Shown piece after piece: positions 7,215 through 50,937 of a stretch of DNA of 64,000 nucleotides. The stretch lies in the IMG/VR virus record IMGVR_UViG_3300035152_000011, one strand, 5' to 3'. Made by a program: the position numbers and the translations under genes. Under the pieces are notes generated by a model. That model was not told the origin of the DNA. It ran no database searches and saw nothing but the letters and a program-made list of their open reading frames with translations. Source of the DNA: a virus. Position 1 is the first letter of the stretch. Every line of letters begins with the position of its first letter.

Positions 7215-7557
7215 CCCACGGCTCCACTGGGATCTCTTTGAAGACCCACTTACGGTAATCGTACTCTTCGTTCCAAAGCCGTTGAGCAGCTTCCACTTGG
7301 CGGCGGCGGAACTGTTTGGTGTGGTCAATCCCGATGGAATAGCCAAGCACCCATTCACCATCCCAGTTGACCGTCGCCCAAGCTGCACTACGGCCGTTCT
7401 TCGGCCACCAGCGCGGTCGCCGAGCCGGCTTGACGAGCAGGATGACGTCCCAGTTGGGATTCGGCGCGCCGCATCGAGCGCAGGTCTCACGCTTACAGCC
7501 TGGAAGGCCGTACTCGGTGAACCAGTGCCGTTTGTGGCCGAGGATGCAACGACTCAT
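7207..7557 (-). CDS. Cys-rich hypothetical protein.
   Basis: C4-type spacing CILGHKRH...CKRETCARCG; internal Met start gives an ATGA overlap with the next gene. Confidence 0.45.
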   Translation of the reverse strand: MSRCILGHKRHWFTEYGLPGCKRETCARCGAPNPNWDVILLVKPARRPRWWPKNGRSAAWATVNWDGEWVLGYSIGIDHTKQFRRRQVEAAQRLWNEEYDYRKWVFKEIPVEPWDD

Positions 7558-15815: not shown

Positions 15816-17052
15816 GTCTCAATCTGTAAGCCATTGAGCGGGCATTGCGGCGAGACGACGCGAGTACAGTCTCAACCTATTTAGCCGTTGAGCGGGCATT
15901 GCGGTCCAGGCTGTTGGTGGAGAGATCGAACAACAGTCTCAATCTATGAGCCATTGAGCAGGCATTGCGGCTTCGAGCAGACCGTAGCGGTACCAGTCTC
16001 AATCTATGAGCCATTGAGCGGGCATTCCGGCCCAGCCCCGCACACCCAAGACGTACTACCTGCAATCGTCTCAATCTATGAGCCATTGAGCGGGCATTCC
16101 GGCGCGCGCGAGCCGGTGTGCATCGCGGCTCAGCCGGTCGTCTCAATCTATGAGCCATTGAGCGGGCATTCCGGCGGCCTGCTGTCCCCGACGCGTTTTC
16201 GCGACTTCGTCGAGTCTCAATCTATGAGCCATTGAGCGGGCATTCCGGCCTCGTGCAGCTCGTCTCACCGAGACGAGATATACGAGCTGTCTCAATCTAT
16301 GAGCCATTGAGCGGGCATTCCGACGTGCGGCCTTCAGCATCGTCTCGTCGATGGTGGCATGTCTCAATCTATGAGCCATTGAGCGGGCATTCCGGCCGGT
16401 GCGACGGGGTCGAAATCGTCGCTGTCTCAATCTATTCAGCCATTGAGCGGGCATTCCGGCTTGCCGACCGACGCCGAGATTCTCAAGAAGGGGATAGTCC
16501 CAATTTATGAGCCATTGAGCGGGCATTCCGGCGCGATCCGTGCCGGCCATGCGGATGATGAGGTTGAGTCCCAATCTATGAGCCATTGAGCGGGCATTCC
16601 GGCGCAGCGGTCGCTGGGGCACTACTGCGGTGCACAGTGTCTCAATCTATGAGCCATTGAGCGGGCATTCCAGCACGCCCACTTGTAGTAGAAGCCCATG
16701 GAAATCTGCCGTCTCAATCTATGAGCCATTGAGCGGGCATTCCGGCACGAACGGCTGGTCCGTGAGTGCTCGTATGTCATCGGTCTCAATCTATGAGCCA
16801 TTGAGCGGGCATTCCGGCACGAACGGCTGGTCCGTGAGTGCTCGTATGTCATCGGGAAGCACTGTGGAACCTGTCTCAATCTATGAGCCATTGAGCGGGC
16901 ATTCCGGCACCTCGTACGGGCGCTCAACGACGATGCAGGCACTCAGTCTCAATCTATGAGCCATTGAGCGGGCATTCCGGCCCATCCGCGCGGGCAAGCG
17001 GCTCCTTTTCGAGGAAGTCTCAATCTATGAGCCATTGAGCGGGCATTCCGGC
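15816..17052 (-). CRISPR. CRISPR array of 18 repeats (36 bp, consensus GTCTCAATCTATGAGCCATTGAGCGGGCATTCCGGC on the plus strand) and 17 spacers.
   Basis: Direct repeats at 15816, 15869, 15936, 15996, 16068, 16140, 16214, 16289, 16361, 16424, 16497, 16568, 16639, 16711, 16783, 16873, 16946 and 17017. Consensus copies cluster at the 17052 (cas12-proximal) end and decayed copies at the 15816 end, with further remnants back to about 15745. Spacer lengths are 17-54 bp and mostly 35-37. The minus-strand repeat RNA ends in a CUCAAU/AUUGAG hairpin next to the spacer, which fits a type V crRNA read in the same direction as the cas12-like gene. Confidence 0.9.
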
Positions 17053-28470: not shown

Positions 28471-29538
28471 CTACGCGACGCGAAGGTGAACCTTGCCGTC
28501 GCTGAGCCGACCGTGGTCACGCTGAGTGCGCTCGGCGCCCGCGTTGGCCTCGACGACATCGCCGATGATCGAGGCGAGGGTCTTGGTGGACTTGAACGAG
28601 CCGACCTTCTCTTCCAACTCGATGTACTCGGCGCCCAGCTCGGGGTTGTGCTTGGCGGCGATCTTCAGGTCTTCCTCGGCAGCGCAGATGCAGAAGCAGC
28701 AGGAGCAGCGGCTCATGCCAAGGTCGTAGCAGTAGTGGTACCGGGCGCCGCTCTGCGCAATCCGTGCCCAGACTTGGCTTACGGTCCAGTCGGCGATGGG
28801 GTACCACTTCGTGAGCTTGACCGAGCTGCTGTCGCGCACGACCTTGATGCAGAGTCCGTCGAACTTCTCCTCGCAGGCGCAGAGGCTCTTGCGGCGGCCG
28901 TCCGACTCGTCCTTGGTTAACCCAACGCAGTCGATGATCTTGACCTGGCGCTTGCTGCCCTCTTCGGCGCGGACTTCTTTCGCGAGAGCGGTCGCGAGCT
29001 TCGCGATCTGCGCGGTTTTGAAATCGCTCGTGCCGTTGCAGGTCCCGGTCTGGGGCCACGCGCGAGTGTTGTCACCGCGCTGGTCGAGCGTGTCGCGGCG
29101 GTCAACGACCCAATCCAAAAAGTTGGCGATCTGGTTGCCGCGCTTGGAGGTGACAGTCTGGCGCTTGACGACCTCGAAGCGAATGCCGTAGTGCGCGGCG
29201 TGCTCGCGGGCCAGCTCCTCCGTCCCGAGCCACTCGATGCGGCCGAGGTCGGCGTAGGCGGCGAGGAGGCGGTCGGTGATGCCGAGGGCTTTGCAGTAGG
29301 CATAAACGAGGTCGAGCTGGGCTTGGCTGTCCTTACCGCCCGAGATCGAGACGATGACGCGGTCGGCGTCCAACAGGTCGGGGATACGCCCGGCGGCGAT
29401 GTCCGCGAGCGCGCTCTTGCGGGTGATCTTCTTGCAGGAAACGGCCTGGTCGGCCTTAGTGAAGTGCTGCGAGGTCTTGCGGGCGCGCTCGGCGTCGCGC
29501 TTGCTGATCTTGTTTGACTTGCTGCTCTTCCTGGCCAT
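28471..29538 (-). CDS. PAPS reductase-like / PP-loop ATP pyrophosphatase family protein.
   Basis: PP-loop VIVSISGGKDSQAQLDLV and a C-terminal Cys cluster CSCCFCIC. Start at MARKSS after the hairpin+RBS. Confidence 0.6.
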   Translation of the reverse strand: MARKSSKSNKISKRDAERARKTSQHFTKADQAVSCKKITRKSALADIAAGRIPDLLDADRVIVSISGGKDSQAQLDLVYAYCKALGITDRLLAAYADLGRIEWLGTEELAREHAAHYGIRFEVVKRQTVTSKRGNQIANFLDWVVDRRDTLDQRGDNTRAWPQTGTCNGTSDFKTAQIAKLATALAKEVRAEEGSKRQVKIIDCVGLTKDESDGRRKSLCACEEKFDGLCIKVVRDSSSVKLTKWYPIADWTVSQVWARIAQSGARYHYCYDLGMSRCSCCFCICAAEEDLKIAAKHNPELGAEYIELEEKVGSFKSTKTLASIIGDVVEANAGAERTQRDHGRLSDGKVHLRVA

Positions 29539-29554
29539 CGACTCGCGTCTCCTT

Positions 29555-29568
29555 GTCCCCTCGGGGAC
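29555..29568 (-). promoter_or_regulatory. GC hairpin variant GGTCCCCGAGGGGACC (compensatory change keeps the palindrome).
   Basis: Sense strand reads GGTCCCCGAGGGGAC-AAGGAG-ACGCGAGTCG-ATG. Confidence 0.55.
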
Positions 29569-29613
29569 CAATCGCCTTCAGAAACTAAGACGTCGGGCGC
29601 ACCCCGGAAATTC

Positions 29614-29664: not shown

Positions 29665-30060
29665 TCATTTATGTCGGAGTTTGGCCTCCACAATCATGGT
29701 GCAGGTGCCGCAGAGGGTCCGGCCGTCGAGCTGGCGGGTTTCCCCGCGGTAGGGCCGGCCGGTGCAGCGGTCGCATTGGACGCGCTCCAGCGAGCCGTAG
29801 TGGGCGTGGAGCCTGGCGAGCTGCTTAGCGTCCCGTAGCCGAGCTGCGTTGTTGTCGTGCGCCTCGTCGGCTACCAGAGCCCATTCCTCATCGCCGCCGA
29901 CGTAGACCTCAACCGACCAGCAGCTCGGTCGAGGCTTGCGCGCGCCGAGGCCGAGCTGGATCGACGTGTAGCCGAGCACGAGCCGGTAGCGTCGTCCAGA
30001 GTTGCGGTCGTGCGCGACGTAGTTGCCGTCGCCGGCTCGATGCCATCGCAGCTCACGCAT
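29665..30060 (-). CDS. Hypothetical Cys-containing protein.
   Basis: Internal Met MRELRWHRAG...; C-terminal CDRCTG...CGTC. Confidence 0.4.
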   Translation of the reverse strand: MRELRWHRAGDGNYVAHDRNSGRRYRLVLGYTSIQLGLGARKPRPSCWSVEVYVGGDEEWALVADEAHDNNAARLRDAKQLARLHAHYGSLERVQCDRCTGRPYRGETRQLDGRTLCGTCTMIVEAKLRHK

Positions 30061-30311
30061 TACGGTGCTCCTTGCAGGCAGGTTGTGCAGGTCGCCTCGC
30101 CGTCTTCGTCCACGTCGCAACAGTCCGGGCACACTGGATCGCCGCAGCGAACGCAGTCGAGCCAGAACCAGTCGTCGGGATCGCGAGTCGCCTTGAAGAG
30201 TGGCGTCAGGCGAGCGCCGCACTCGACGCAGTGCTGGACCGCAGAGACGCGTGGGCGCCCCTTGCGGTCCGGCTTGCGATAGTTCCAGCTCACGCGTACT
30301 CCTTCGCGCAC
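30060..30311 (-). CDS. Small Cys-rich protein.
   Basis: CVECG...CVRCGDPVCPDCCDVDEDGEATCTTC. Confidence 0.4.
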   Translation of the reverse strand: MREGVRVSWNYRKPDRKGRPRVSAVQHCVECGARLTPLFKATRDPDDWFWLDCVRCGDPVCPDCCDVDEDGEATCTTCLQGAP

Positions 30312-30564: not shown

Positions 30565-31767
30565 TTACGCGAGGCCAACAGCGAGTTGAAGGGTCTTGCG
30601 GTCGTCCGCGGGGCCCTCGAAATTCGGGCAGCCAAGCACCTCGGCCGCGATCTTGAGGGAGAAGGTCAGGCGGCGCTTGCCGTCCGACTCGAACGACGGC
30701 GCCTTGTCGGTGCCGACCAGCCGACGGATGAGGCAGGCATCGATCTGGATCATGCAACCAGGAGCCGCCTCATGCACCTGCGAGAGGAAGTCGCAGATGA
30801 GCCGACCACCGGAACCGAGGCCGAGCAGGTGAAGCCGACGGGGCTGAACCTCACGAGCGAATTCCGCAGCCTGCTCCGGCAGAGTCGCGGCCTTCTTGCA
30901 TGGCAGCGCCGGAATCCAGTCGCAGTCGGGACCGAGCAGCTCGGCGACCTTCGCGTGAAACTGGCCCTGCGAGAGCGCACCGCGCTGCATCGGGACGAGC
31001 ACCCGCGCGCCGAGAGCCGCGATGCGACGAAGCTGCGGGACATGCGCCGAGAGCCGCTCCAGAGTCTCAGCCTGGAAGCCCACCTTGTCGGGGGCAACGC
31101 AGTGAAGCTGGTCGCCAAGCGAGCGAGCCAGCCGCTCGTAGCAGTCAAGTAGGCGCGGCCAGTAGTCGTCCGAGATCGGCTTTACTACGACCGGGCCGGG
31201 GCGGAAATCAACCTCGGAGAACGCGCCCGAGTCGATGAACACTTGAATGTCGGTGCCGGCGAGCGCTTCCAGCTCGCGGATGCTCTTCTCGCTGATGTTC
31301 GGGAACGCAACACCAACGTCGTGACCGGCGACCGCCAGGCCGCGGATGTCACCGACGCAGTTCGAGCCGCTCGCGAAGTGAGCAACCGGCTCGACCGGCA
31401 GCTCGACGCGCTCGTTGAGGTAGTCACCGAGCTTCGACTGACGGAAGCGCTCCAGGCACTTCGCGAATGGCCGCGCAAGGCGCTTCAGGAGAGTCGGCCG
31501 AGTACCGCACCGCACGCTGAAACCAAGCGAACGGAGGACCCGAACCGCATGAGCGGCACCACCGGAGAATTCCCGCGCCGACAGACCAGCTGCCACGCCG
31601 AGTACCGCCTTCGACGGGTACGAGCGGTCGTGGTAGCGCAGCTGGTAGGTCTTGGCGGCCGCGTAACCGTAGCGGGCCAGGAACGACTCCAGGCCGAGCT
31701 GGTCGCATTCGGAAATGGCGGCCAAGACATCGAGTCGGCTTACATCTTGCGGAATTCGGTGGGCCAT
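30565..31767 (-). CDS. Hypothetical protein with a TGT/DpdA-like C-terminal region (possible DNA-guanine transglycosylase).
   Basis: VFIDSGAFSEV resembles the TGT substrate-pocket motif DSGGFQ, and HLLGLGSGGR resembles the TGT LxGVG region; the N-terminal ~100 aa is a separate domain. Tentative. Confidence 0.35.
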   Translation of the reverse strand: MAHRIPQDVSRLDVLAAISECDQLGLESFLARYGYAAAKTYQLRYHDRSYPSKAVLGVAAGLSAREFSGGAAHAVRVLRSLGFSVRCGTRPTLLKRLARPFAKCLERFRQSKLGDYLNERVELPVEPVAHFASGSNCVGDIRGLAVAGHDVGVAFPNISEKSIRELEALAGTDIQVFIDSGAFSEVDFRPGPVVVKPISDDYWPRLLDCYERLARSLGDQLHCVAPDKVGFQAETLERLSAHVPQLRRIAALGARVLVPMQRGALSQGQFHAKVAELLGPDCDWIPALPCKKAATLPEQAAEFAREVQPRRLHLLGLGSGGRLICDFLSQVHEAAPGCMIQIDACLIRRLVGTDKAPSFESDGKRRLTFSLKIAAEVLGCPNFEGPADDRKTLQLAVGLA

Positions 31768-33804: not shown

Positions 33805-34182
33805 CTACTCGCACGCCTTGCTCGGAAGTAGCAGCCAGTGGTTTGGGTTACCGGAGGTCGTGAACCGAACGAACGTGAATGCTCGCTTGCCGATCTCAAC
33901 CTTGAGTGTCTCGCCATCGACCCACTTGATCAACTTCAGCGTGCCGCGCTCGCGCAGTTCGACGGTGCCAGCACCGCCGTGGCCTTCCTCGATGACGCCC
34001 TCGAAGTCCATGTAGCCCAGCTCGTGGTCTTGGACACGGATTGCGAGCACGGGCCGTGGGTGCTTCTTCATCCCCTTCGGGATGCAGAACGACACGGCGA
34101 TGCCACCATCCTCGAACCGGAAGTCGTCATGCGGCCCGGCGCGCTTCGCAACGTGGTGCTGGATGCAGTACTCACGATTCAT
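33805..34182 (-). CDS. LigD-type 3'-phosphoesterase (PE) domain protein.
   Basis: HHVAKRAGPHDDFRFE...SFCIPKGM...VQDHELGYMDFEGVIEEGHGGAGTVELRERG matches the LigD PE signature (HxHxxxxxHYDxRLE, SWAVPKGP, EDHPLDYxDFEG...GHYGAG). Confidence 0.8.
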   Translation of the reverse strand: MNREYCIQHHVAKRAGPHDDFRFEDGGIAVSFCIPKGMKKHPRPVLAIRVQDHELGYMDFEGVIEEGHGGAGTVELRERGTLKLIKWVDGETLKVEIGKRAFTFVRFTTSGNPNHWLLLPSKACE

Positions 34183-34414: not shown

Positions 34415-34651
34415 TCAGCAGCCGAAACAGTTTGTGCAGCCCGTTTCGTTTTCCTCGCCACAGTCATTGTCAGTGGCTTGACAGTCGTAGCAGGTCTTTT
34501 CGCGGCCACACGTCTCACACGTCTGGCAGCTCTCGTCGAAGTAGGTGTCCGCGCCGCCTTGGCAGTGCATGTACTGTTGACTGCCGGTCGCCGCCTGCGC
34601 CGCGTCAATCTTACGCAGCGTCTCTCGGCTGAGCTTGAGTTTCTTCGTCAT
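34415..34651 (-). CDS. Cys-rich peptide with a RiPP-precursor-like N-terminal leader.
   Basis: MTKKLKLSRETLRKIDAAQAATG...QGG followed by 12 Cys; RBS TGGAGGAACG. Confidence 0.5.
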   Translation of the reverse strand: MTKKLKLSRETLRKIDAAQAATGSQQYMHCQGGADTYFDESCQTCETCGREKTCYDCQATDNDCGEENETGCTNCFGC

Positions 34652-35310
34652 ACGTTCCTCCAGCGTTCGATCAGTTCCCGCAGTCCAGGACGGTCCTTGC
34701 GATGACAGAGGTAGTGCGCCGACGGTCCACGGAACTGGTGCTCGACGTCGAAGAAGAGTGACATGGCCCGCATGATCTCCTCATGCGTGTACCAGTGGAA
34801 CCGCGACACGTCGAGGCCGATGGTTGGGCTGGCCTGGACGTGCATGACCGTGCGGCCGAGATGCCCAGAGGCCTCTAGGTAGATCACGCCGCCGCGTCGG
34901 TAGAGCTTCCAGCCCCAGCGCGGCTTGCGAAAGGTGTTGAAGACGAACCGGCCATCTTCGGTGAGGATCGACCACACCGCAGCGCCGACGTCGAGCAGGT
35001 TGAGGTAGTTGATGGCCTGCCGGCAAACGACTAGGGTGAAGGTGCCCTCATCGTAGTATTCGGCAGCGTCTTCAGCGCGGCCGCGGACCTCGGCGATGTA
35101 GGGCTCGCAGCAGCGTGGGTTGAGGTCGAGGATCGCGGCGGCGCAGCCTCGCTCACGAGCTGCCTGCGCGACGATGCCTGTACCGCCGCAGAGGTCGAGC
35201 ACGACGTCTTCGGAGATCGCTCCAGCGAAGTCGAGCAGCGGCGTCGGGTTGTCGAGCCAGCGCGCGTAGAGCGCACCGTACTTGTCAGTCGTGCAATCAA
35301 GCCTGAACAT
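34648..35310 (-). CDS. SAM-dependent methyltransferase (class I).
   Basis: Motif I VLDLCGGTGIVA with motif-post-I acidic residue ILDLN. Start at MFRLD. Confidence 0.65.
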   Translation of the reverse strand: MFRLDCTTDKYGALYARWLDNPTPLLDFAGAISEDVVLDLCGGTGIVAQAARERGCAAAILDLNPRCCEPYIAEVRGRAEDAAEYYDEGTFTLVVCRQAINYLNLLDVGAAVWSILTEDGRFVFNTFRKPRWGWKLYRRGGVIYLEASGHLGRTVMHVQASPTIGLDVSRFHWYTHEEIMRAMSLFFDVEHQFRGPSAHYLCHRKDRPGLRELIERWRNV

Positions 35311-35656
35311 CGACGTCTCCTTCCGCGCCCAACATGTCCTTGGAGGTTGCGGGGCGCCACGCGCCGCGATAGCTGTCGCGCACGACGGTGTACTCCACAC
35401 GGCTCTTCGGCGGCGGCGCTAGCTCTTCGTCCAGCTCGATGCGCTGGAGCTGGAAGCCGATAACGCCTCCGGTGACATACGTGTCGCGTACCTTGTTGGC
35501 GGCAGCGACCGACGAGAAGACGCCGAATATCTTGGCGTCCTGGATGGTGTTGTTCTCATACCAGCCGAACAGCATGTACAGCGGCATCGAGTAGAGCGTT
35601 TGCATCGACGTCGCTCCTAGTCGTCGCACAGCCAGCCAGTACAGTCGTACGTGCAC
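35297..35656 (-). CDS. Hypothetical protein (start uncertain).
   Basis: 119-aa ORF; an internal Met MQTLYSMPLY is also possible. Confidence 0.35.
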   Translation of the reverse strand: MHVRLYWLAVRRLGATSMQTLYSMPLYMLFGWYENNTIQDAKIFGVFSSVAAANKVRDTYVTGGVIGFQLQRIELDEELAPPPKSRVEYTVVRDSYRGAWRPATSKDMLGAEGDVDVQA

Positions 35657-35832
35657 TCGCAGGTCTGGGCGCAGGAATCTTCACCGCGGTACGTTGGGCA
35701 CTCGTCGCTGACGCGCTCTGGGCACGCGACCTTCGGCAGGCAGCTACCGTCACTGGGCGGTCCAGCTCGGAGTGGGATCGCGCGGCTGAGCTTCTTCAGC
35801 GTTTCTCTACTGAGCTTGAGCCTCTTGGTCAT
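35617..35832 (-). CDS. Cys-rich peptide with a RiPP-precursor-like leader; paralog of 34415..34651.
   Basis: MTKRLKLSRETLKKLSRAIPLRAG... followed by 10 Cys; RBS ACGGAGGG. Confidence 0.5.
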   Translation of the reverse strand: MTKRLKLSRETLKKLSRAIPLRAGPPSDGSCLPKVACPERVSDECPTYRGEDSCAQTCECTYDCTGWLCDD

Positions 35833-36458
35833 TTGAGCCCTCCGTGTTTTTCGTAAAGTGCCGCGCAGGTGTTGTACAGCCGCTTGAGCCAATACAGGAG
35901 ATCCTGTTCTCCTGCCCATTCTTCCATCACGGCGTCCAGCTTCCCCTTCAACTCCCCACTCGAAAACATCTCGATTGGAATGGGACGGAGATCGGGGACA
36001 CCCCGCTTGAAAAGCTCCGCTACGATGGCGTCTGCGTCGTCATCGGTCATTTCCCATCGGTGCTGCACCTGCTCTCGTCTTTTCAGCATTCGCAGGCGTG
36101 CTTCGTCATCTTCGTTTTCGCTGACGTGTAGCAGTCTGGGAAGGTGCTCGACGGCGCAGCGTTGACCATCAAGCCAGTGTGCTTCGTCGAGAAACCCGCT
36201 GCTGTCCACCTTGTGCTTGGTGTTCCACTGCCCCATAAGAAGCGTGGGTCTTCGATTCTCGATCCCGATCAAGAACGTAACGATGTAGACAAAGCCGTCG
36301 GGCGACGGCTTGAGCGGACGGTCCCCCTCGTAGAAGTCCTGTATTTTCTTCTTCGCCACTCGTACGAACTGCCCCTCAGCGATTCGTTGGTAGACCCAGT
36401 TGGTAGCGCCCGGGGGAGTTGGGACGTCGTAACGGTAGAGATGGCCAGCGCGTTTCAT
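35829..36458 (-). CDS. Hypothetical protein.
   Basis: 209 aa. Confidence 0.45.
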   Translation of the reverse strand: MKRAGHLYRYDVPTPPGATNWVYQRIAEGQFVRVAKKKIQDFYEGDRPLKPSPDGFVYIVTFLIGIENRRPTLLMGQWNTKHKVDSSGFLDEAHWLDGQRCAVEHLPRLLHVSENEDDEARLRMLKRREQVQHRWEMTDDDADAIVAELFKRGVPDLRPIPIEMFSSGELKGKLDAVMEEWAGEQDLLYWLKRLYNTCAALYEKHGGLK

Positions 36459-37645
36459 AACGGCTTACCGTCTCGGTCCACGGCGATGATCCAGCCGTGG
36501 TTGCGAATCTTGTAGCTCGGGCCTGGTATGGCGCGCTCGTTGTCACGCACGGTTCCAGGCGGCGCGTACTCGACCGTCGGCTCGGCCTTCGAGCTGACGC
36601 CCAGGCAGCCGAGCTGTGCCCAACCATCCCAGTCGCCGTGGTAGTGCACAACGGCACGGGCGCTCGAATAGAGCTTGAGATGACGGATCAGCAGCGGCGC
36701 GTTGAGCGACGCCTTCCCTTCCTGCGTGAAGACCTTGCGGTCCTGGACGCGATCCACGAGCACAGCATCCTTCGAGCTGAACATCGCGCCCTTCTCGCGC
36801 GGCGAGACAAGGTACCGACCGTCGGGGGTCCGCACGGCAACTGCGCCCAGCACGAAGCCGTCATCGCTGCGTGGCGTGAACGCAGTGCGGAACAACCCGG
36901 TGATGTGGTCGAAGAAGTTGCTGGCCTGGACGTAGCCGCGATGGTGCTCCGGCTTCAGCTCAAGTGGCTCTTGGATCTCTACCGTGCGGTAGTGAACGTC
37001 GTCGATGATTTGTCGGAGATGCTCGTAGAAGCCGACGAATTCGTCATCGAAGAGCTGGACCGCACGGTCCTGGTGAACCACGAACTTCTTTCGCAGGCCG
37101 AGCTTCGCATCGTTGGCGACGACCGCGTTGCAGCGCGCGTTCAACACAACATGGTAGGCGGCCTCGACCAGTGCATCGTAGTCGTTGCCGAAGAGGAGCT
37201 TGCAACCGATGAGCGTGAGCCTACGGTTGATCGCTTTCATCTCGTTGATGACTCGCGGGGCAAGTACGAACGGGATGATTTGGCGCTCGGATTCCGTCGG
37301 CATTTTGCCCGGGAAGGGCTTCTCAGGAATCCAGTTGACGACGGCCGCTGCCATGATCGCGGCATCCACCTCTTGTGCGAAGTGGTGGCAGAGGTCGCGG
37401 TAGCTCGCGTACCCTTCGTGTGTGCGCAACGCGATGTGGCCTGCGTACTCGCCGAGCTGGCGCCGAAACTCGCGCTCCATGATGTCGGGCACGAGCAGAA
37501 TCGGCTGGTACTCCCCTTTGTGTTCCCAGGCCAGAAGCCACTTGGCAAACTCGACAGCCCAGAGACCGCGTGAGCGGTTACTCACGATCTTGTTGTCGTC
37601 GAGCTTCCCGTAGACCGGGCCGGCGGTGATCAGTACGCGTTTCAT
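36455..37645 (-). CDS. CoaB/DFP-family (phosphopantothenate-cysteine ligase-like Rossmann) domain protein with an extra C-terminal domain.
   Basis: VLITAGPVYGKLDDNKIVSNRSRG matches the CoaB motif ITAGPT...R.ISN.SSG. Confidence 0.5.
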   Translation of the reverse strand: MKRVLITAGPVYGKLDDNKIVSNRSRGLWAVEFAKWLLAWEHKGEYQPILLVPDIMEREFRRQLGEYAGHIALRTHEGYASYRDLCHHFAQEVDAAIMAAAVVNWIPEKPFPGKMPTESERQIIPFVLAPRVINEMKAINRRLTLIGCKLLFGNDYDALVEAAYHVVLNARCNAVVANDAKLGLRKKFVVHQDRAVQLFDDEFVGFYEHLRQIIDDVHYRTVEIQEPLELKPEHHRGYVQASNFFDHITGLFRTAFTPRSDDGFVLGAVAVRTPDGRYLVSPREKGAMFSSKDAVLVDRVQDRKVFTQEGKASLNAPLLIRHLKLYSSARAVVHYHGDWDGWAQLGCLGVSSKAEPTVEYAPPGTVRDNERAIPGPSYKIRNHGWIIAVDRDGKPL

Positions 37646-40555: not shown

Positions 40556-41488
40556 CTAGCTGGCCTTCTTCGCGGAGGCCTTCTTTGAGCCCTTCTTCGG
40601 AGCCGACTTCTTCGCAGCTGGCTTCTTCGAGCTGGCCTTCTTCGAGGTCTTCTTGGCAGCGGGCTTCTTGGACTTCTTCGACTTCCCGGCGCTCGGGTCC
40701 TTGGCCTTCGCCGCGCTGAGCATCATGTCCGTGAGGTCCACAGCGCCGAAGGCGGCCTGCGCGTTCGGCGCGGGCGCAGCACTGACGTCGCCTCCGCTGA
40801 CCTTCGCCTCGATCTGCGCCTTCACAGCCGCGGTGTGGTTGTCGAGATGCGCGGCCAGGTCGAAGCTGTCGTTCGAGTACGCGTCGATGAACGTCTGCGT
40901 CGCGGCCAGCTCGGCCTCGGTGTACTCGCAGTCCGGGGCGTCGGCGACCGCAGCGACCTCGCGCACGGCAGCGTCGTAGAACAACGTGTGCAGAAGGAAG
41001 CCGCCCTCGACCGGACGCAACACCGCGAGGTATTCCTTGCCGCGGGTCCGGTATCGACTGACAGCGACACGGCCGCTCTGGAGCAACGCGGTGTGCAGCA
41101 GCCCGTAGGCGCGCTCACCACCCTTGTCCGGGCCGACCACGTAGCTCTTGTCGTAGTACATCGGGTCGATGTCCTGGACGCTCACGAATTCGACGACCTC
41201 GACGCTGTTGCCCTCGACGCCGAAGGCTTTGATCTCTTCGGCGGAGAACTGGACGTACTGTCCCTTGCTGATCTCGTAGCCCTTCACGATCTCGGCGTAT
41301 GCGATCTCCGTATCGCACTCCGGGCAGAAGGTCGGTTGCTTCACGCGGCAGCCGCAGGCGCGGTGTAGTTGCACGAAGCTGATCCCGGCCTTGTTGTCGA
41401 TCAGGGTCATTACCTTCGCGGGAACCGCGAGCAGTCCGCATTGGATCGTCGCGCGGTGAAGGGTCTTGCTCTTGCTGTTGCTCGGCAT
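40556..41488 (-). CDS. ku: Ku (NHEJ DNA-end-binding protein) with a Lys-rich C-terminal tail.
   Basis: ATIQCGLLAVPAKV..., ISFVQLHRACGCRVKQPTFCPECD..., IVKGYEISKGQYV..., VEFVSVQDIDPMYYDKSYVVGPDKGGERAYGLL..., LRPVEGGFLLHTLFY all align with bacterial Ku. The tail reads KSKKSKKPAAKKTSKKASSKKPAAKKSAPKKGSKK. Confidence 0.85.
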   Translation of the reverse strand: MPSNSKSKTLHRATIQCGLLAVPAKVMTLIDNKAGISFVQLHRACGCRVKQPTFCPECDTEIAYAEIVKGYEISKGQYVQFSAEEIKAFGVEGNSVEVVEFVSVQDIDPMYYDKSYVVGPDKGGERAYGLLHTALLQSGRVAVSRYRTRGKEYLAVLRPVEGGFLLHTLFYDAAVREVAAVADAPDCEYTEAELAATQTFIDAYSNDSFDLAAHLDNHTAAVKAQIEAKVSGGDVSAAPAPNAQAAFGAVDLTDMMLSAAKAKDPSAGKSKKSKKPAAKKTSKKASSKKPAAKKSAPKKGSKKASAKKAS

Positions 41489-42751: not shown

Positions 42752-42934
42752 TTAGCGTTCGGGTCCATCAGCAGGCTCCTTCGCGGCGAGGCAGGGCAGC
42801 CGCTCTAGCTCAGTATTCCACAGCTGTACGACATCGTCGTCGGCGTGTGAGAAAGGCGGGTTCACGGCGCGTAGTACCGACCGCTGTACCTTCTCCAGCT
42901 CTTTGCAGTTCTTGCAGGTGCCACAGCGTTTCAT
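42752..42934 (-). CDS. Small Cys-containing protein.
   Basis: MKRCGTCKNCKELE. Confidence 0.35.
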   Translation of the reverse strand: MKRCGTCKNCKELEKVQRSVLRAVNPPFSHADDDVVQLWNTELERLPCLAAKEPADGPER

Positions 42935-44019
42935 GATCCGTCTCCATTCGTCGCTTTGTAGACGCGGGTCCAGGCCTCGTCGTCATCGGGGCCCCGCAGG
43001 TAGGGCTCGACGTGGATCAGCTTGCGCAGCTTGCGGCCGGGGCCGTAGGGCTGTTGCTTCCAGTGTCCGCTCACGAGCCGTTGCGACTTGAGTTTCCAGC
43101 CCTTGCGGGTACGCGGCGTGACCGCAGCTTCCTTTGCGGCCTCACGCAGTTCGCGGTCGAGCTTGACCGAGCGTCCGACGATCCACGTCGTCGGCCAATG
43201 GAGCTTCGGCCGGCTGCGCTTGCGCTTGCTGATCTTGTTCGTAGGCGTGCGCTTCGCGGTGCCGCCCGTGCTCTTGAGCCAGAGCGCGAAGCCGCAGCAG
43301 AAGTTGAGCAGTGCTTCCATCGCGAGCTGCGTTACGCCCGAGTCGCGAACCTCGCGGTACTCACCTTCCTCCGCGGCCGGTGACCAGCACTTGAGCTTGT
43401 CGGAGATGATCCCGCTAGCCAGGTCGTCAGCGCGCTTGTTGAGAGCTGCTACGGCGAGCGTACGGTCGCCCAGGAACGCCTCGATGTGTAGCCAGCGGTC
43501 TTCTGGATAGTCCGGGTCCGGGCCGTGGCCCTGCGAACGGTAGTGGTCGTGTACCAGGACGCGTACAGGGCGTTCACGGTAACCGTGCATATCGGGCAGC
43601 GGAATGTAGCCACACGGGATCTCCAGCATGAATGCCGGGAACGGCCACTCGATGTCGTCGTAGCCGACGGTGGCGTCGGTGAGCGCGAGCAACGCTGCGA
43701 GCGAGTCGGCGATCTGGAACGTCTGGCACCCGTAGTCGGCCCAACGCTCGTGCGCGTGGTAACGAACCGCGGCCTCACTCACCGCGACGTCCCAGCTGTC
43801 CAGCTCGGCGCCGTTTACGGCCGCGAGCAGTGGGCCACCCTGGAAGCGCTTGCCAGCACTGAGCACGACCTGGAGCTTCTTCTGGTCCTTGACGAGCTGG
43901 TGCAGCCACTCACGATGGCTGGCCGATGGTCGTGGCCCCATGCGCATCGCGCACGCAACGAACGCGAGCTTCTGTACGAAGCTCCGTCGATGCCAATCTG
44001 GAGGCAGGTCGCCTTTCAT
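42931..44019 (-). CDS. Hypothetical protein.
   Basis: 362 aa. Confidence 0.5.
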   Translation of the reverse strand: MKGDLPPDWHRRSFVQKLAFVACAMRMGPRPSASHREWLHQLVKDQKKLQVVLSAGKRFQGGPLLAAVNGAELDSWDVAVSEAAVRYHAHERWADYGCQTFQIADSLAALLALTDATVGYDDIEWPFPAFMLEIPCGYIPLPDMHGYRERPVRVLVHDHYRSQGHGPDPDYPEDRWLHIEAFLGDRTLAVAALNKRADDLASGIISDKLKCWSPAAEEGEYREVRDSGVTQLAMEALLNFCCGFALWLKSTGGTAKRTPTNKISKRKRSRPKLHWPTTWIVGRSVKLDRELREAAKEAAVTPRTRKGWKLKSQRLVSGHWKQQPYGPGRKLRKLIHVEPYLRGPDDDEAWTRVYKATNGDGS

Positions 44020-49230: not shown

Positions 49231-49412
49231 TAGTGGTTCTCCGTCGTGGCTACGGGGATGCCCGCGATCTCTTCGGTCGTGCAGGGCTTGCTCGCACGCA
49301 GGTGAACGATGGGATAGCCCAGCTCTTGAGCGAGCTTGAGCAGGGCGGCCGACTTGTGAGCTACGCGCTCCTCGTCACCGGGGGCCAGGTACAGATCGTT
49401 GCGCTTGGTCAT
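49230..49412 (-). CDS. Small hypothetical protein.
   Basis: 60 aa. Confidence 0.35.
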   Translation of the reverse strand: MTKRNDLYLAPGDEERVAHKSAALLKLAQELGYPIVHLRASKPCTTEEIAGIPVATTENH

Positions 49413-50752
49413 GCTGCTTTCCTCTCTGCCGCCTTGGCGGCCTCGTCAGCGGCCTTGCAGGTCGCGTAGAGCTTGTCGAACGCCTTGGTGTGCTTCGCGC
49501 CCTTCTCGCGGTAGACGCGCGGAGCGACGACGATGGCGGCTTCTCGGGTCGGGTACAGGTCGCGGAACGCGACGAGCTGCGCGCTGCAACCACGCTCGAC
49601 GGTCACGCCGTGCTTCCGAGCGAGCTTGCGCAGTTCAGCTTCGCACGCGAAGCGCGAGCCGGCGAAGACCTCGCGGATGTCCCGCTTCTGGTTCGCGCCG
49701 AGTCCCTTCACGGTCTCGTGCGTCGGGCAGTCGCACTTGACCTTCTTGGTGCGCGGCTTGCGGTTCGCCTTGTGGTTCGGGCAGTCGTCGGTGTGAAGCT
49801 GGCCAGCACCGTTCGCGCGCCGCATCAAGTACACAGCCCACTCGTGCGAGCTGAGCCGTGCGTCCAGCGCGTCGAGCGCAGCCTGGTTGCCAGCCTCGGT
49901 GGCTGCCGCGAGTGCGGTGCCTTCCTTGTTGAACATCGGCAGCCGCGGGTTGAAGCGGAGGGCGATGTCTTCGATCTCCAGCGCCTCGCCAGCGGCCTCG
50001 GGCTCGTCGTCCCAGCGCTCGATGGCGTCGTGGCGGTGCTGGAAGGGACAGTACACGCAGCAACTCTTCTCCCATGCGGCGACGCCAGTCACGCTCGCGA
50101 TGTGCTCGATGCAGGCTTCGCGGTCGAGGCCCCAGTCGAACAGCGGATACTCGGCGTGGCGCTGGCCGATGCCGCCGAAGTTTTGATCCTTCACGAGGCG
50201 GCCCTCTTCGCCTACTGCGAAACCGATGCAGTGACGGTAGGGCTCGTTGCCGACTTCGGACTCGATCCAGCGGTCCAGGACCCAGCCCTTCCACTTCAAC
50301 GTGCAGGTGCGGTTGCAGGTCGGCTGCATCGTCACAGCGCTGCGCAGCTCGTCAGCGTAGCTCACCGGGCCGCGCTCGAACAGCTCAGCCGGCGAGGTCG
50401 AGTCATCGAGGACAACGATGCCGTCGCGCTCGCTGTGGCCGCCGCGGGCGATCTGGACGAAGCGGACGCCGTGCTCACGCAGCAGCGGCAGGACGTGCTC
50501 GCGCACGAGTTTGTAGGTGGAGGGGTACTCGTTGCCGACCATGCAGGTGACAACGGTGAGCTGAGAGAGGTCGAAGTCGCGGCTCGACGGGTCGGTCAGC
50601 CAGCGCAGCAGGATCTCGGTGCTGTCCACGCCCATCCCGTAGCTCAGGATGACGCGGGCGCCGCGGAGCTGCTCAGCTCGTGCGCTTCGGTCCGCGTGGT
50701 AGGCCTTGACCGCTGCTTCGATTTCCCGGCGCCGCTTCTCTGCCTTCGTCAT
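49409..50752 (-). CDS. PAPS reductase-like / PP-loop family protein (second copy).
   Basis: VILSYGMGVDSTEILL (SxGxDS) and C-terminal EKSCCVYCP. Start at MTKAEKRRRE after the hairpin+RBS (GGAGGAAACGCG). Confidence 0.55.
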   Translation of the reverse strand: MTKAEKRRREIEAAVKAYHADRSARAEQLRGARVILSYGMGVDSTEILLRWLTDPSSRDFDLSQLTVVTCMVGNEYPSTYKLVREHVLPLLREHGVRFVQIARGGHSERDGIVVLDDSTSPAELFERGPVSYADELRSAVTMQPTCNRTCTLKWKGWVLDRWIESEVGNEPYRHCIGFAVGEEGRLVKDQNFGGIGQRHAEYPLFDWGLDREACIEHIASVTGVAAWEKSCCVYCPFQHRHDAIERWDDEPEAAGEALEIEDIALRFNPRLPMFNKEGTALAAATEAGNQAALDALDARLSSHEWAVYLMRRANGAGQLHTDDCPNHKANRKPRTKKVKCDCPTHETVKGLGANQKRDIREVFAGSRFACEAELRKLARKHGVTVERGCSAQLVAFRDLYPTREAAIVVAPRVYREKGAKHTKAFDKLYATCKAADEAAKAAERKAA

Positions 50753-50764
50753 CGCGTTTCCTCC

Positions 50765-50778
50765 GACCCCTCGGGGTC
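50765..50778 (-). promoter_or_regulatory. GC hairpin variant GGACCCCGAGGGGTC.
   Basis: Sense strand reads ACGGACCCCGAGGGGTC-GGAGGAA-ACGCG-ATG. Confidence 0.55.
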
Positions 50779-50840
50779 CGTGAGTGCGCTTTTCGCGCTT
50801 CCATACGTCAGACGCAGGGCGGTTTCGGAAATTCACCCCT

Positions 50841-50858
50841 TGATCGCAGCTGCGATCA
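50841..50858. promoter_or_regulatory. Operator palindrome TGATCGCAGCTGCGATCA (perfect).
   Basis: About 60 bp upstream (sense) of the hairpin, followed by CTTTTTC on the plus strand. Confidence 0.55.
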
Positions 50859-50937
50859 CTTTTTCGGCGGTCGATTCCCGAAATCCGCAGGGTTAGCCCG
50901 ATCATGATCAGCTCGTGTCCCCCAGCCCCGATCTGGG

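What the first reader, a model, noticed from the sequence alone, without database searches (positions are those of the whole stretch)
34415..35832. Two paralogous phage-encoded Cys-rich peptides with RiPP-precursor-like leaders
Seen in sequence: 34415..34651 (MTKKLKLSRETLRKIDAAQAATGSQQYMHCQGG... with 12 Cys) and 35617..35832 (MTKRLKLSRETLKKLSRAIPLRAGPPSDGS... with 10 Cys) share the N-terminal pattern M-T-K-[KR]-L-K-L-S-R-E-T-L-[RK]-K. This resembles the K-L-x-L-x-K-E-T-I-x-x-L leader of radical-SAM/SPASM-associated and other RiPP precursor families, and one has a Gly-Gly site before the Cys-rich core. They flank a SAM-dependent methyltransferase (34648..35310). Both have strong RBSs. Inference: modified or disulfide-rich peptides made by the phage (toxin, receptor blocker or signalling peptide). 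No radical-SAM maturase is present in this window, so maturation might rely on host enzymes, or the resemblance is only superficial.
Basis: inference. Interest (0 to 1): 0.55.

Follow-up and report, generated by a model that had tools for sequence, protein, structure and literature searches.

The report
Orphan lanthipeptide-type precursor peptides in phage
A large uncultured phage carries two small related genes whose products start like the leader of bacterial lanthipeptide and bacteriocin precursors and end in an acidic, cysteine-rich tail, yet no modifying enzyme or exporter was found in the roughly 84 kb examined, so they either use host machinery or imitate host precursors.

Summary
Both ORFs are on the minus strand and have 10 and 8 Cys, not 12 and 10. 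They are full-length paralogues under purifying selection (dN/dS 0.18-0.41). Each has a GGAGG ribosome-binding site and an ATGA overlap with the gene upstream.

The leader resemblance is not superficial. About 116 of 130 matches start 40-80 aa ORFs with a canonical double-glycine leader and a Cys-rich core. LanB/LanC genes lie in 46 of those 120 loci, C39-ABC exporters in 18 and radical-SAM genes in 5. Two relatives of the phage peptides give sub-threshold hits to NCBIfam lant_leader_L1a; 0 of 120 shuffles hit anything.

The phage copies are atypical. Their GG site is displaced (pep1) or changed to G-P (pep2), and their cores are very acidic. No maturase or exporter was found in the window or in 10 kb beyond each end.

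The adjacent methyltransferase belongs to a separate module (methyltransferase plus CoaB-like protein) that is conserved in jumbo phages lacking these peptides.

Best reading: orphan RiPP-precursor-like peptides that depend on, or interfere with, host machinery. No modification has been shown.

The parts
34415..34651 (-). pep1: 78-aa precursor-like peptide (MTKKLKLSRETLRKIDAAQAATGSQQYMHCQGG|ADTYFDESCQTCETCGREKTCYDCQATDNDCGEENETGCTNCFGC). It has 10 Cys and ends in a C-terminal Cys.
   Evidence: An exact copy is called as a gene in JGI and Logan assemblies. dN/dS is 0.18 against L003.
34607..34651 (-). pep1 leader box, residues 1-15 (MTKKLKLSRETLRKI). It fits LxLx[KR]x5[LI].
   Evidence: The motif is described in PMC7268733. 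AlphaFold places a helix at residues 9-20 with low confidence.
34553..34558 (-). pep1 Gly32-Gly33. This is a possible double-glycine cleavage site, but it lies 30 residues from the K of the KL motif instead of the canonical 23.
   Evidence: It is not conserved in the pep2 branch.
34418..34552 (-). pep1 core, residues 34-78: 9 Cys, 8 Ser/Thr, net charge -9.
   Evidence: All four substitutions against L003 fall in the core.
34656..34661 (-). Ribosome-binding site GGAGGA, 4 nt upstream of the pep1 ATG. The ATG overlaps the methyltransferase stop codon as ATGA.
35617..35832 (-). pep2: 71-aa paralogue (MTKRLKLSRETLKKLSRAIPLRAGPPSDGSCLPKVACPERVSDECPTYRGEDSCAQTCECTYDCTGWLCDD) with 8 Cys.
   Evidence: Homologues are P0003 (75% identical), the L004 peptide and P0124. 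dN/dS is 0.22-0.41.
35788..35832 (-). pep2 leader box, residues 1-15 (MTKRLKLSRETLKKL).
35758..35763 (-). pep2 Gly24-Pro25. It sits within one residue of where bacterial homologues have the GG cleavage site, so it looks like a degenerate site and is probably not cleavable.
   Evidence: Relatives have A-S or M-S followed by Pro at this position.
35719..35757 (-). pep2 block PSDGSCLPKVACP, residues 26-38. It is identical in three of the four pep2-type peptides and 11 of 13 in the fourth.
35620..35718 (-). pep2 variable C-terminal region, residues 39-71: 6 Cys, no CxxC pair, acidic.
35838..35843 (-). Ribosome-binding site GGAGGG, 5 nt upstream of the pep2 ATG. The ATG overlaps the stop codon of the 209-aa ORF as ATGA.
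34648..35310 (-). Class I SAM-dependent methyltransferase (Pfam Methyltransf_23), 220 aa. It is a neighbour of the peptides and probably not part of any peptide pathway.
35297..35605 (-). 102-aa ORF between pep2 and the methyltransferase. It is also present in L004 and absent in L002 and L003. Only weak family hits were found.
35829..36458 (-). 209-aa ORF of unknown function, translationally coupled to pep2. In L003 it is truncated to 59 aa by the same deletion that removed pep2.
36455..37645 (-). CoaB-like protein (Pfam DFP) with a weak class II aldolase-like C-terminal match, 396 aa. It is the conserved partner of the methyltransferase across large phages.

Best explanation
pep1 and pep2 are paralogous, phage-borne 'orphan' precursor-like peptides of the double-glycine leader type used by class I lanthipeptides and other RiPPs or bacteriocins.

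Each has a basic N-terminal helix box, KLxLx[KR]ETL[KR]x[LI]. In hundreds of peptides from high-GC soil bacteria the same box precedes a GG cleavage site and a Cys/Ser/Thr-rich core, next to LanB/LanC dehydratase-cyclase pairs, C39-peptidase ABC exporters or radical-SAM enzymes.

The examined part of the phage encodes no such enzyme. The inferred mechanism is that after infection the peptides are made from a long early or accessory operon and engage host leader-recognising proteins (LanB/LanC, an exporter, or an rSAM maturase). They would then either be converted into thioether-bridged products or act as leader mimics.

Their deviant cleavage sites (GG shifted by 7 residues in pep1, G-P in pep2) and unusually acidic cores argue against ordinary cleavage and export.

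Shown: gene reality, paralogy, identity of the leader box with a RiPP-associated bacterial leader class, absence of maturases in about 84 kb, and independence of the methyltransferase. Inferred: any interaction with host enzymes, any modification, and the biological role.
For: Leader similarity
- 116 of 130 matches are complete ORFs of at most 100 aa with an ATG within 18 codons upstream. 106 of the 109 unique peptides have a GG or GA within 30 residues.
- The distance from the K of the KL motif to the end of GG is exactly 23 residues in 70 of 92 peptides.
- Pfam confirms Lant_dehydr_N/C, LANC_like, Peptidase_C39+ABC and Radical_SAM in neighbouring genes.
- LanB/LanC occur in 46 of 120 loci, and in 26 of the 53 loci of at least 3 kb. 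PCAT occurs in 18 loci and rSAM in 5.
- Among 761 sequences (756 window ORFs of at least 30 aa plus five added family peptides), only pep1, pep2 and their homologues match the bacterial leader profile.
- NCBIfam NF038153 lant_leader_L1a scores E=0.0024 for P0124 (6.6e-4 for its leader alone) and 0.056 for the L004 peptide. NF047798 scores 0.049 for the pep2 leader. None of 120 composition-matched shuffles hit any family at E<=0.1.
- The literature describes LxLxKx5L leaders ending in GG, with C39 proteases, in class I LanAs (PMC7268733).

Core and gene properties
- The cores have 8-10 Cys and 8-11 Ser/Thr.
- Both genes are under purifying selection and keep every Cys between close homologues.
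- AlphaFold predicts only an N-terminal helix and no folded domain, with pLDDT about 45.

Context
- No maturase was found.
- Strong Shine-Dalgarno use is seen in both the phage (23 of 37 listed starts, the last four of them mis-mapped) and the bacterial precursor genes (83%). GC content is comparable, 63% against a median of 67%.
Against: - No curated leader model is passed. The NF038153 cut-off is 22 bits and the best family member scores 18-19.8. The two window peptides themselves do not hit it at all.
- The profile test is partly circular, because the bacterial set was selected with a pattern taken from the phage leader.
- The second half of the canonical leader (ELxxVxGG) is poorly kept.
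- Core similarity to bacterial cores is no better than for shuffled cores, z about 0.
- Core net charge of -6 to -9 lies outside the bacterial range (median -1, minimum -5).
- No LanB/C, PCAT, rSAM or YcaO gene was found in the roughly 84 kb inspected.
- The host is unknown, so it is not known whether a matching host system exists.
- The family is tiny. Only 3 representatives exist among 1.84 billion proteins, and none in IMG/VR.
- No chemical evidence of modification exists.
Confidence: 0.55

Rival explanations
1. The peptides are ordinary intracellular small metal-binding (Zn or Fe-S) or acidic mimic proteins of the phage's early or anti-defence region. On this view the N-terminal helix resembles RiPP leaders only by convergence.
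For: - pep1 has CxxCxxC twice plus one CxxC.
- Many other small Cys-rich, zinc-ribbon-like ORFs occur in the window and between the methyltransferase and CoaB-like genes of other phages, for example L004 (80 aa) and L013 (77 aa).
- The neighbourhood is rich in DNA-repair and anti-defence-type genes: Ku, LigD-PE, PARP, and Pfam hits to AcrF31 and AcrVA2-like families.
- The strongly acidic cores resemble DNA-mimic anti-restriction proteins (own knowledge).
- No maturase was found.
Against: - pep2 has no CxxC pair, and Cys number and spacing change between close homologues. That is unusual for a structural metal site.
- AlphaFold finds no fold.
- There is no Pfam, PHROG or PDB match to zinc-binding families.
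- By my rough residue-frequency estimate, a near-perfect 14-residue match to the bacterial leader consensus, placed exactly at the N-terminus and followed by a Cys-rich tail, would occur about 1e-5 times by chance in a window of this size. The shuffle control is.
- Acidic cores argue against DNA binding.
Confidence: 0.2
2. This is a self-contained phage RiPP pathway. The neighbouring phage enzymes (the Methyltransf_23 methyltransferase, the CoaB-like ligase/aldolase-like protein, or the 209-aa and 102-aa ORFs) recognise the leader and modify the acidic Cys-rich cores, for example by carboxyl methylation or ligation.
For: - In all four related elements that carry a peptide, it directly flanks the methyltransferase or lies one small gene away: window, L002, L003, L004.
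- Both peptides are translationally coupled within the operon.
- Methyltransferases are common RiPP tailoring enzymes (PMC7268733).
Against: - The methyltransferase family is widespread on 55-435 kb viral contigs, and none of the 24 other methyltransferase loci scanned (L005-L029) has a leader peptide within about 3 kb.
- Its constant neighbour is the CoaB-like gene, in 11 of the 12 loci inspected.
- L005 has the methyltransferase at 66% identity but no peptide.
- The four peptide-bearing elements are close relatives, so adjacency may simply be inherited.
- No homologue of these phage enzymes occurs in the bacterial loci that use the same leader.
- The methyltransferase has an invariant C-R-Q at the motif IV position. 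This resembles the catalytic PCQ motif of C5-pyrimidine methyltransferases (own knowledge).
Confidence: 0.1
3. The ORFs are a gene-calling or chance artefact and are not expressed as peptides.
For: They are very short, the DNA is GC-rich with many spurious ORFs, and almost no database relatives exist.
Against: - dN/dS is 0.18-0.41 with conserved Cys.
- GC3 is coding-like at 0.75 for pep1.
- Both have strong ribosome-binding sites and ATGA coupling.
- The start position is conserved in five homologues from different samples.
- Independent pipelines called them as genes.
Confidence: 0.02

Closest known systems
Class I lanthipeptide precursors (LanA) with the LxLxKx5L / double-glycine leader (NCBIfam NF038153 lant_leader_L1a; Walker et al. 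2020, PMC7268733)
   Same: - They share the N-terminal box KLxLx[KR]ETLRx[LI] at the very start of a peptide under 80 aa.
- The core is rich in Cys and Ser/Thr.
- pep1 keeps a GG.
- Metagenomic peptides with this box lie next to LanB/LanC and C39-ABC exporters.
- Family members hit NF038153 with E=0.0024-0.056.
   Different: - The hits are below the curated cut-off.
- No LanB, LanC or exporter was found in the phage DNA examined.
- The GG is displaced by 7 residues in pep1 or replaced by G-P, A-S or M-S followed by Pro in the pep2 branch.
- The cores are longer, have more Cys and are far more acidic.
- The genes are phage-encoded, and this leader type is essentially absent from IMG/VR.
Radical-SAM/SPASM-associated GG-leader peptides (TIGR04149 GG-Bacteroidales type; ranthipeptide/SCIFF-like Cys-rich cores)
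   Same: - The leader has the same K-L-x-L-x-K-E-T-[IL] flavour.
- A subset of the metagenomic peptides with the same box lies next to a radical-SAM gene. The tblastn hits are in L063, L094, L098, L109 and L113; only the L109 gene was checked by Pfam.
- The core composition is rich in Cys, Thr, Asp and Asn.
   Different: - There is no hit to TIGR04149 or the SCIFF model even at E<=10.
- There is no rSAM gene and no CxxxCxxC ORF in the window.
Double-glycine bacteriocin leaders processed by peptidase-C39 ABC transporters (PCAT)
   Same: The hydrophobic positions of the 'ETLRxL' part correspond to positions -15 and -12 of the canonical leader. PCAT genes accompany the bacterial homologues.
   Different: The phage peptides lack the canonical -4 and -7 positions and the GG register. 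No PCAT was found in the phage DNA examined.
'Lanthiphage' class I lanthipeptides, an intracellular anti-phage defence of Actinobacteria (Shomar et al. 2024, bioRxiv 10.1101/2024.06.26.600839)
   Same: These are class I LanA-type peptides linked to phage-host conflict. Their Thr/Asp/Cys-rich cores carry the motif TxDxCxxxCxxxC.
   Different: They are host-encoded together with LphB/LphC and a PF01135 methyltransferase. Any relation to the phage peptides is purely hypothetical.
Phage zinc-ribbon / small Cys-rich ORFs
   Same: They are small and Cys-rich, sit in a phage accessory region, and pep1 has CxxC motifs.
   Different: pep2 has no paired CxxC...CxxC architecture, no family or fold match was found, and the variable Cys spacing and conserved leader-like N-terminus do not fit.

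Membership tests
Class I lanthipeptide precursor with LxLxKx5L/GG leader (NF038153-type LanA) | N-terminal leader box LxLx[KR]x5[LI] | tested here: met
   All six family members fit the box. The motif definition comes from PMC7268733. They match positions 12-30 of a profile built from 106 metagenomic leaders (partly circular).
Class I lanthipeptide precursor with LxLxKx5L/GG leader (NF038153-type LanA) | Score at or above the curated NCBIfam cut-off (22 bits) | tested here: not met
   The best scores are 18 bits (P0124) and 19.8 bits (its leader alone). The L004 peptide scores 13.6 bits. pep1 and pep2 from the window give no hit.
Class I lanthipeptide precursor with LxLxKx5L/GG leader (NF038153-type LanA) | Double-glycine cleavage site in canonical register (23 residues from the K of KL in 70 of 92 bacterial peptides) | tested here: not met
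   In pep1 the GG lies at 30 residues. pep2 has G-P at 22. Relatives have A-S or M-S followed by Pro.
Class I lanthipeptide precursor with LxLxKx5L/GG leader (NF038153-type LanA) | Core containing both Ser/Thr and Cys | tested here: met
   The cores have 8-11 Ser/Thr and 8-10 Cys.
Class I lanthipeptide precursor with LxLxKx5L/GG leader (NF038153-type LanA) | Co-located LanB dehydratase and LanC cyclase | tested here: not met
   tblastn and Pfam found none in the window. None appears among the precomputed Pfam hits for genes 10 kb beyond each end.
Class I lanthipeptide precursor with LxLxKx5L/GG leader (NF038153-type LanA) | Dehydrated residues and (methyl)lanthionine rings in the product | not testable with these tools
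   This needs mass spectrometry or NMR.
rSAM/SPASM-modified GG peptides (TIGR04149; SCIFF/ranthipeptides) | Match to the precursor HMM | tested here: not met
   No hit at E<=10.
rSAM/SPASM-modified GG peptides (TIGR04149; SCIFF/ranthipeptides) | Adjacent radical-SAM/SPASM maturase | tested here: not met
   No CxxxCxxC ORF, no tblastn hit to the rSAM query, and no Pfam Radical_SAM among the genes checked.
NHLP / Nif11 leader families | Match to the long (about 60-80 aa) NHLP or Nif11 leader domain | tested here: not met
   No NCBIfam or Pfam hit. The leader here is only about 25-33 aa.
Zinc-ribbon / small Zn-binding phage proteins | Two CxxC (or CxxH) knuckles in conserved spacing, and a family or fold match | tested here: not met
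   pep2 has no CxxC. Cys spacing varies between homologues. There is no Pfam, PHROG or PDB hit. AlphaFold pLDDT is about 45 with no fold, although the alignments were shallow. Metal content is not testable here.
RiPP tailoring by the adjacent methyltransferase | Co-occurrence of the methyltransferase family with the precursor family across genomes | tested here: not met
   None of the 24 other methyltransferase loci scanned (L005-L029) has a real leader peptide within about 3 kb; the single match to the pattern is a chance hit. L005 lacks one. The conserved partner is the CoaB-like gene.

The most novel reading that the evidence does not exclude
The phage peptides may be leader mimics, that is, decoy precursors. 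They keep the leader box recognised by host lanthipeptide or bacteriocin machinery, but carry an uncleavable or mis-registered GG site and an acidic, poorly processable core. They would therefore occupy or poison the host LanB/LanC or the C39 exporter. If the host system is an intracellular anti-phage lanthipeptide of the kind reported for Actinobacteria (10.1101/2024.06.26.600839), this would be the first phage counter-defence aimed at a RiPP pathway.
Probability: 0.12. Interest if true: 0.85.

Novelty: new variant of a known kind. Interest (0 to 1): 0.55.

Why it matters
Double-glycine and lanthipeptide precursors are normally found with their enzymes in bacterial gene clusters. Here a small clade of large, uncultured phages carries two diverged copies of such a precursor with no enzyme found nearby. 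This leader type is otherwise essentially absent from 2.9 million viral contigs.

If the host processes the peptides, phages can plug new cores into host RiPP factories, as a 'trans' precursor on a virus. If the peptides are not processed, they are candidate inhibitors of RiPP machinery. That matters now that class I lanthipeptides have been reported to act as intracellular anti-phage defences.

Either outcome can be tested directly with a few co-expression and mass-spectrometry experiments.

The work also documents a very large pool of soil-bacterial 'KLxLxRETLRxL...GG' Cys-rich precursors, and a conserved methyltransferase/CoaB-like module of jumbo phages. I found no description of either, but I did not search the literature for them specifically.

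Tried and rejected
- GenBank phages. blastn of 5 kb and tblastn of both peptides found nothing meaningful.
- Word-indexed protein search. It found pep1 only as itself, and pep2 plus one 75% homologue.
- Exhaustive HMMER search against 1.84 billion representatives. Only P0003, pep1 and a truncated relative, P0124, were found, so there is no bacterial full-length homologue.
- IMG/VR. Protein-based scans and leader-pattern scans gave only chance hits.
- JGI metagenome scan with the exact family leader. No relatives were found.
- Curated families. Pfam, NCBIfam and PHROGs on the two window peptides gave no hit above threshold. The sub-threshold leader hits are reported as such.
- Solved structures. 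The PDB sequence search found nothing.
- Structure prediction. AlphaFold on both peptides was low-confidence and uninformative beyond an N-terminal helix, so no fold search was run.
- Core homology. Smith-Waterman scores of phage cores against 106 bacterial cores were not above composition-matched shuffles, so I claim leader similarity only.
- Conserved leader with hypervariable core. This signature is only weakly present. pep1 against L003 has 0 non-synonymous and 4 synonymous changes in the leader, against 4 and 1 in the core. For pep2 against L002 the leader and core have equal dN/dS. I rejected it as an argument.
- Methyltransferase as tailoring enzyme. Rejected on co-occurrence.
- Bacteroidota host. 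The leader models come from that phylum, but 23 of 37 listed phage gene starts (the last four mis-mapped) have a strong GGAG-type Shine-Dalgarno sequence. That argues against a Bacteroidota host (own knowledge).
- Host identification. No tRNAs were found. Helicase relatives occur in phages of many phyla and are not informative.
- Walking along the 143-kb contig. Only 10 kb beyond each window end could be seen.
Full report
**1. The observation**

The two ORFs are present at the stated coordinates but lie on the minus strand. pep1 is 34415..34651, 78 aa. pep2 is 35617..35832, 71 aa. They contain 10 and 8 Cys, not 12 and 10.

Their first 18 residues align with 13 identities, BLASTP E=2e-7. The shared codons differ at several synonymous positions (ACG/ACC, AGC/AGT, CGA/AGA, GAG/GAA), so the peptide sequence is what is conserved.

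Each start codon overlaps the stop of the upstream gene as ATGA. Each is preceded by GGAGGA or GGAGGG at 4-5 nt.

pep1 directly follows a 220-aa Methyltransf_23 enzyme (34648..35310; Pfam E=1.3e-8). pep2 lies upstream of that enzyme but is separated from it by a 102-aa ORF.

The window is a 62.7% GC element with nearly all genes on one strand. Its genes include:
- a UvrD-type helicase (phrog_1967, E=8.6e-92), ThyX and a tyrosine integrase;
- a TnpB-like protein and a PARP-like protein;
- Ku, LigD-PE and an ATP-dependent ligase;
- PAPS-reductase-like proteins;
- proteins with Pfam hits to anti-CRISPR families.

Relatives of its methyltransferase are found on 55-435 kb IMG/VR contigs. 'Phage-encoded' is therefore reasonable, although no structural gene lies in the window.

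**2. Real genes and true paralogues**

Homologous loci were recovered from other samples.
- L003 has a methyltransferase 98% identical. It carries pep1 with four substitutions, and pep2 has been deleted.
- L002 has a methyltransferase 72% identical. It carries a pep2 homologue, P0003 (75% identical), directly upstream of the methyltransferase.
- L004 has a methyltransferase 66% identical. It carries a 76-aa pep2-type peptide with 9 Cys directly upstream.
- L005 also has a methyltransferase 66% identical, and no peptide.

Nei-Gojobori dN/dS is 0.18 for pep1 and 0.22-0.41 for pep2. This is similar to neighbouring genes, and all Cys are conserved between close homologues.

The L004 peptide bridges the two branches over their full length: pep1 against the L004 peptide gives E=8e-10. 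In that alignment the GG of pep1 falls opposite P-A-R-P or P-E-R, so GG is not a family feature.

The family is extremely narrow. An exhaustive profile search of 1.84 billion representative proteins returned only P0003, pep1 and a truncated relative, P0124. IMG/VR and a JGI metagenome scan gave nothing.

**3. Is the leader resemblance more than superficial?**

Curated models are not passed. The window peptides give only a weak hit, pep2 to NF047798 leader_Chryseo at E=0.37, or 0.049 for its leader alone.

Two relatives do hit NF038153 lant_leader_L1a ('class I lanthipeptide'). P0124 scores E=0.0024 (18 bits against a cut-off of 22), or 6.6e-4 for its leader alone. The L004 peptide scores E=0.056. 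None of 120 composition-matched shuffles of these leaders hit any NCBIfam family at E<=0.1.

The published motif for Bacteroidetes class I LanA leaders, LxLxKx5L, often ends in GG and comes with a C39 protease (PMC7268733). Every family member fits it.

The decisive test was a collection scan with a high-GC back-translation of K-L-x-L-x-[K/R..]-E-T-L-[K/R..].
My rough estimate of chance matches is fewer than 10.
- 116 of the 130 matches are complete ORFs of at most 100 aa with an ATG within 18 codons upstream.
- 106 of the 109 unique peptides have GG or GA within 30 residues, followed by a short core with a median of 4 Cys.
- Several contigs carry tandem copies.
- The spacing from the K of the KL motif to the end of GG is exactly 23 residues in 70 of 92 peptides.

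Neighbouring genes were confirmed by Pfam as LanB (Lant_dehydr_N, E=1e-162 to 1e-169, plus Lant_dehydr_C), LanC (LANC_like), a GAF-Peptidase_C39-ABC exporter and a radical-SAM protein.

By tblastn, LanB/LanC occur in 46 of 120 loci, and in 26 of the 53 loci of at least 3 kb. PCAT occurs in 18 loci and the rSAM type in 5. None occurs in the window.

The N-terminal box of the phage peptides is therefore the same box that marks a very abundant class of RiPP/bacteriocin precursors in high-GC, Shine-Dalgarno-using soil bacteria.

A profile of the bacterial leaders picks out only pep1, pep2 and their homologues among 761 sequences: 756 window ORFs plus five added family peptides. That test is partly circular, because the bacterial set was selected with a pattern taken from the phage leader.

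**4. How the phage copies differ**

Only the first half of the bacterial leader profile aligns. pep1 keeps a GG, but 30 residues from the K, a 7-residue longer linker. pep2 has G-P at the GG position, within one residue. Its relatives have A-S or M-S followed by Pro.

The segment PSDGSCLPKVACP after this pseudo-site is the most conserved part of the pep2 branch.

The cores are 45-54 aa with 8-10 Cys and 8-11 Ser/Thr. Their net charge is -6 to -9, against a bacterial median of -1 and minimum of -5. Core similarity to bacterial cores is not above shuffles.

AlphaFold gives pLDDT of about 45, with only an N-terminal helix predicted. There is no PDB, Pfam or PHROG relative.

pep2 has no CxxC pair, and Cys spacing changes among homologues. 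That speaks against a conserved zinc-ribbon or Fe-S fold. pep1 alone could bind metal, with CxxCxxC twice.

**5. The methyltransferase is a bystander**

The methyltransferase family has 154 hits and is essentially confined to metagenomic and viral contigs. In 11 of the 12 loci inspected it is adjacent to a CoaB-like (Pfam DFP) protein of about 350-460 aa. This is the homologue of 36455..37645, which also has a weak class II aldolase match.

None of the 24 other methyltransferase loci scanned (L005-L029) has a real leader-type peptide within about 3 kb. The bacterial lanthipeptide loci contain no homologue of the phage methyltransferase, the CoaB-like protein, or the 209-aa and 102-aa ORFs.

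The peptides, like other small Cys-rich ORFs in L004 and L013, sit in or beside a variable spot of this conserved two-gene module. That explains the 'flanking' without a functional link.

The methyltransferase has an invariant C-R-Q at the motif IV position. This resembles the catalytic PCQ motif of C5-pyrimidine methyltransferases (own knowledge) and hints at a nucleotide or nucleic-acid substrate.

**6. No maturase within reach**

No coding-like ORF has CxxxCxxC. Pfam on all ORFs above about 150 aa, plus the precomputed Pfam hits, shows no Lan, rSAM, YcaO, ATP-grasp or C39 domain. This covers the window and 10 kb beyond each end. The flanks instead hold RNR, ThyX, acetyltransferases, thioredoxin and ADP-ribosylglycohydrolase.

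About 60 kb of the longest contig (143 kb) could not be inspected, and the host is unknown.

**7. Interpretation**

The best-supported reading (confidence about 0.55) is that pep1 and pep2 are orphan, phage-borne descendants or mimics of double-glycine, LanA-type precursor peptides.

What they do is inferred, not shown. They may be processed by host LanBC or rSAM machinery and released at lysis. Alternatively, given their deviant cleavage sites and acidic cores, they may act as non-productive leader mimics.

The mimic reading gains interest from two reports. [quoted passage not shown] I give it about 0.12.

The rivals are:
- convergent small metal-binding or acidic proteins (0.2);
- a self-contained pathway using the neighbouring phage enzymes (0.1);
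- a gene-calling artefact (0.02).

**8. Novelty and score**

RiPP precursors with this leader are a known kind. A phage-borne, enzyme-less, diverged pair is a new variant.

The same generic leader pattern gives no N-terminal leader peptide in 2.9 million viral contigs. My limited literature searches found no report of phage-encoded LanA-like orphans.

Interest is 0.55. The leader link is solid and the hypotheses are directly testable, but function and modification are unproven and the family is tiny.

Noticed in passing
window 34648..35310(-) and 36455..37645(-); loci L006, L007, L009-L015, L017, L018: A Methyltransf_23 methyltransferase and a CoaB-like (Pfam DFP) protein of about 350-460 aa form a conserved gene pair on large (55-435 kb) uncultured phage contigs. 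The window copy of the CoaB-like protein also has a weak class II aldolase match. Small Cys-rich ORFs are often inserted between the two genes (L004, 80 aa; L013, 77 aa). The methyltransferase has an invariant C-R-Q at the motif IV position. In L018 the pair sits with a CoaC-like flavoprotein, and in L010 next to what looks like a macro-domain gene (judged by eye). The function is unknown, possibly nucleotide or ADP-ribose-related chemistry.
   Followed up: partly
window 19728..21293(-): A 521-aa ORF (480 aa as called in L034) has WGR, PARP regulatory and PARP catalytic domains (Pfam E=3e-31), a eukaryote-like PARP architecture in a phage. An ADP-ribosylglycohydrolase gene lies about 8 kb beyond the high-coordinate end of the window.
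   Followed up: no
window 40556..41488(-), 33805..34182(-), 22572..23573(-), 22033..22512(-): A near-complete set of NHEJ-type repair genes is scattered over 20 kb: Ku, a stand-alone LigD 3'-phosphoesterase domain, an ATP-dependent DNA ligase, and a small protein with a PolX/DNA_pol_B_thumb hit.
   Followed up: no
window 17025..18620(-) and 6300..7490(-): A 531-aa TnpB/Cas12f-like protein gives a Cas12f1-like_TNB hit (E=2e-4) and PHROG transposase hits. A 396-aa tyrosine integrase is also present. The element may be temperate or may carry an IS200/605-type passenger.
   Followed up: no
window 28471..29571(-), 49409..50905(-), 30565..31767(-), 30060..30311(-), 42931..44019(-): Two PAPS-reductase-like proteins, a ScoMcrA_N-domain protein, and ORFs with precomputed Pfam hits to the AcrF31 and AcrVA2-like families suggest a DNA-modification and anti-defence region around the peptides.
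   Followed up: no
L003 5825..6004 compared with window 35297..36458: In a 98%-related phage, one deletion fuses the start and end of the 209-aa gene into a 59-aa ORF. The same deletion removes pep2 and the 102-aa gene while keeping pep1. pep2 and its two neighbours are therefore dispensable as a block.
   Followed up: yes
L032 and L033, 39..209: A pep2-type gene (P0124) has the conserved first 38 residues but an unrelated C-terminus of 18 residues without Cys, followed by unrelated DNA on contigs with about 1.8x coverage. This is either a recombinant or an assembly chimera.
   Followed up: partly
L038-L157 (soil metagenome loci): These loci reveal a very large family of 'M..KKLxLx[KR]ETLRxL[DS]xxELxxVxGG' Cys-rich precursors, often in tandem copies.
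- A PIG-L (de-N-acetylase) gene recurs next to LanB/LanC in 9 loci.
- One PCAT carries an N-terminal GAF domain (L134).
- An rSAM-linked subgroup (by tblastn; L109 confirmed by Pfam) has a 'GAA' end to the leader and the core motif PCTxVxSDCYxCTGxLDTCP (L094, L109 and L113; similar cores in L063 and L098).
- One precursor lies next to a 2455-aa CHAT-NACHT protein (L077, and a near-identical peptide beside a 2481-aa ORF in L088).
   Followed up: partly
window 13620..14441(-); beyond the window's low-coordinate end: An FHA-domain protein lies in the window. Just outside the window there is a 1170-aa ribonucleotide reductase with a faint intein hit and two GNAT acetyltransferases. Phage GNAT mutations were the escape route from anti-phage lanthipeptides (reported in PMC12360287, citing Shomar et al.).
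   Followed up: no
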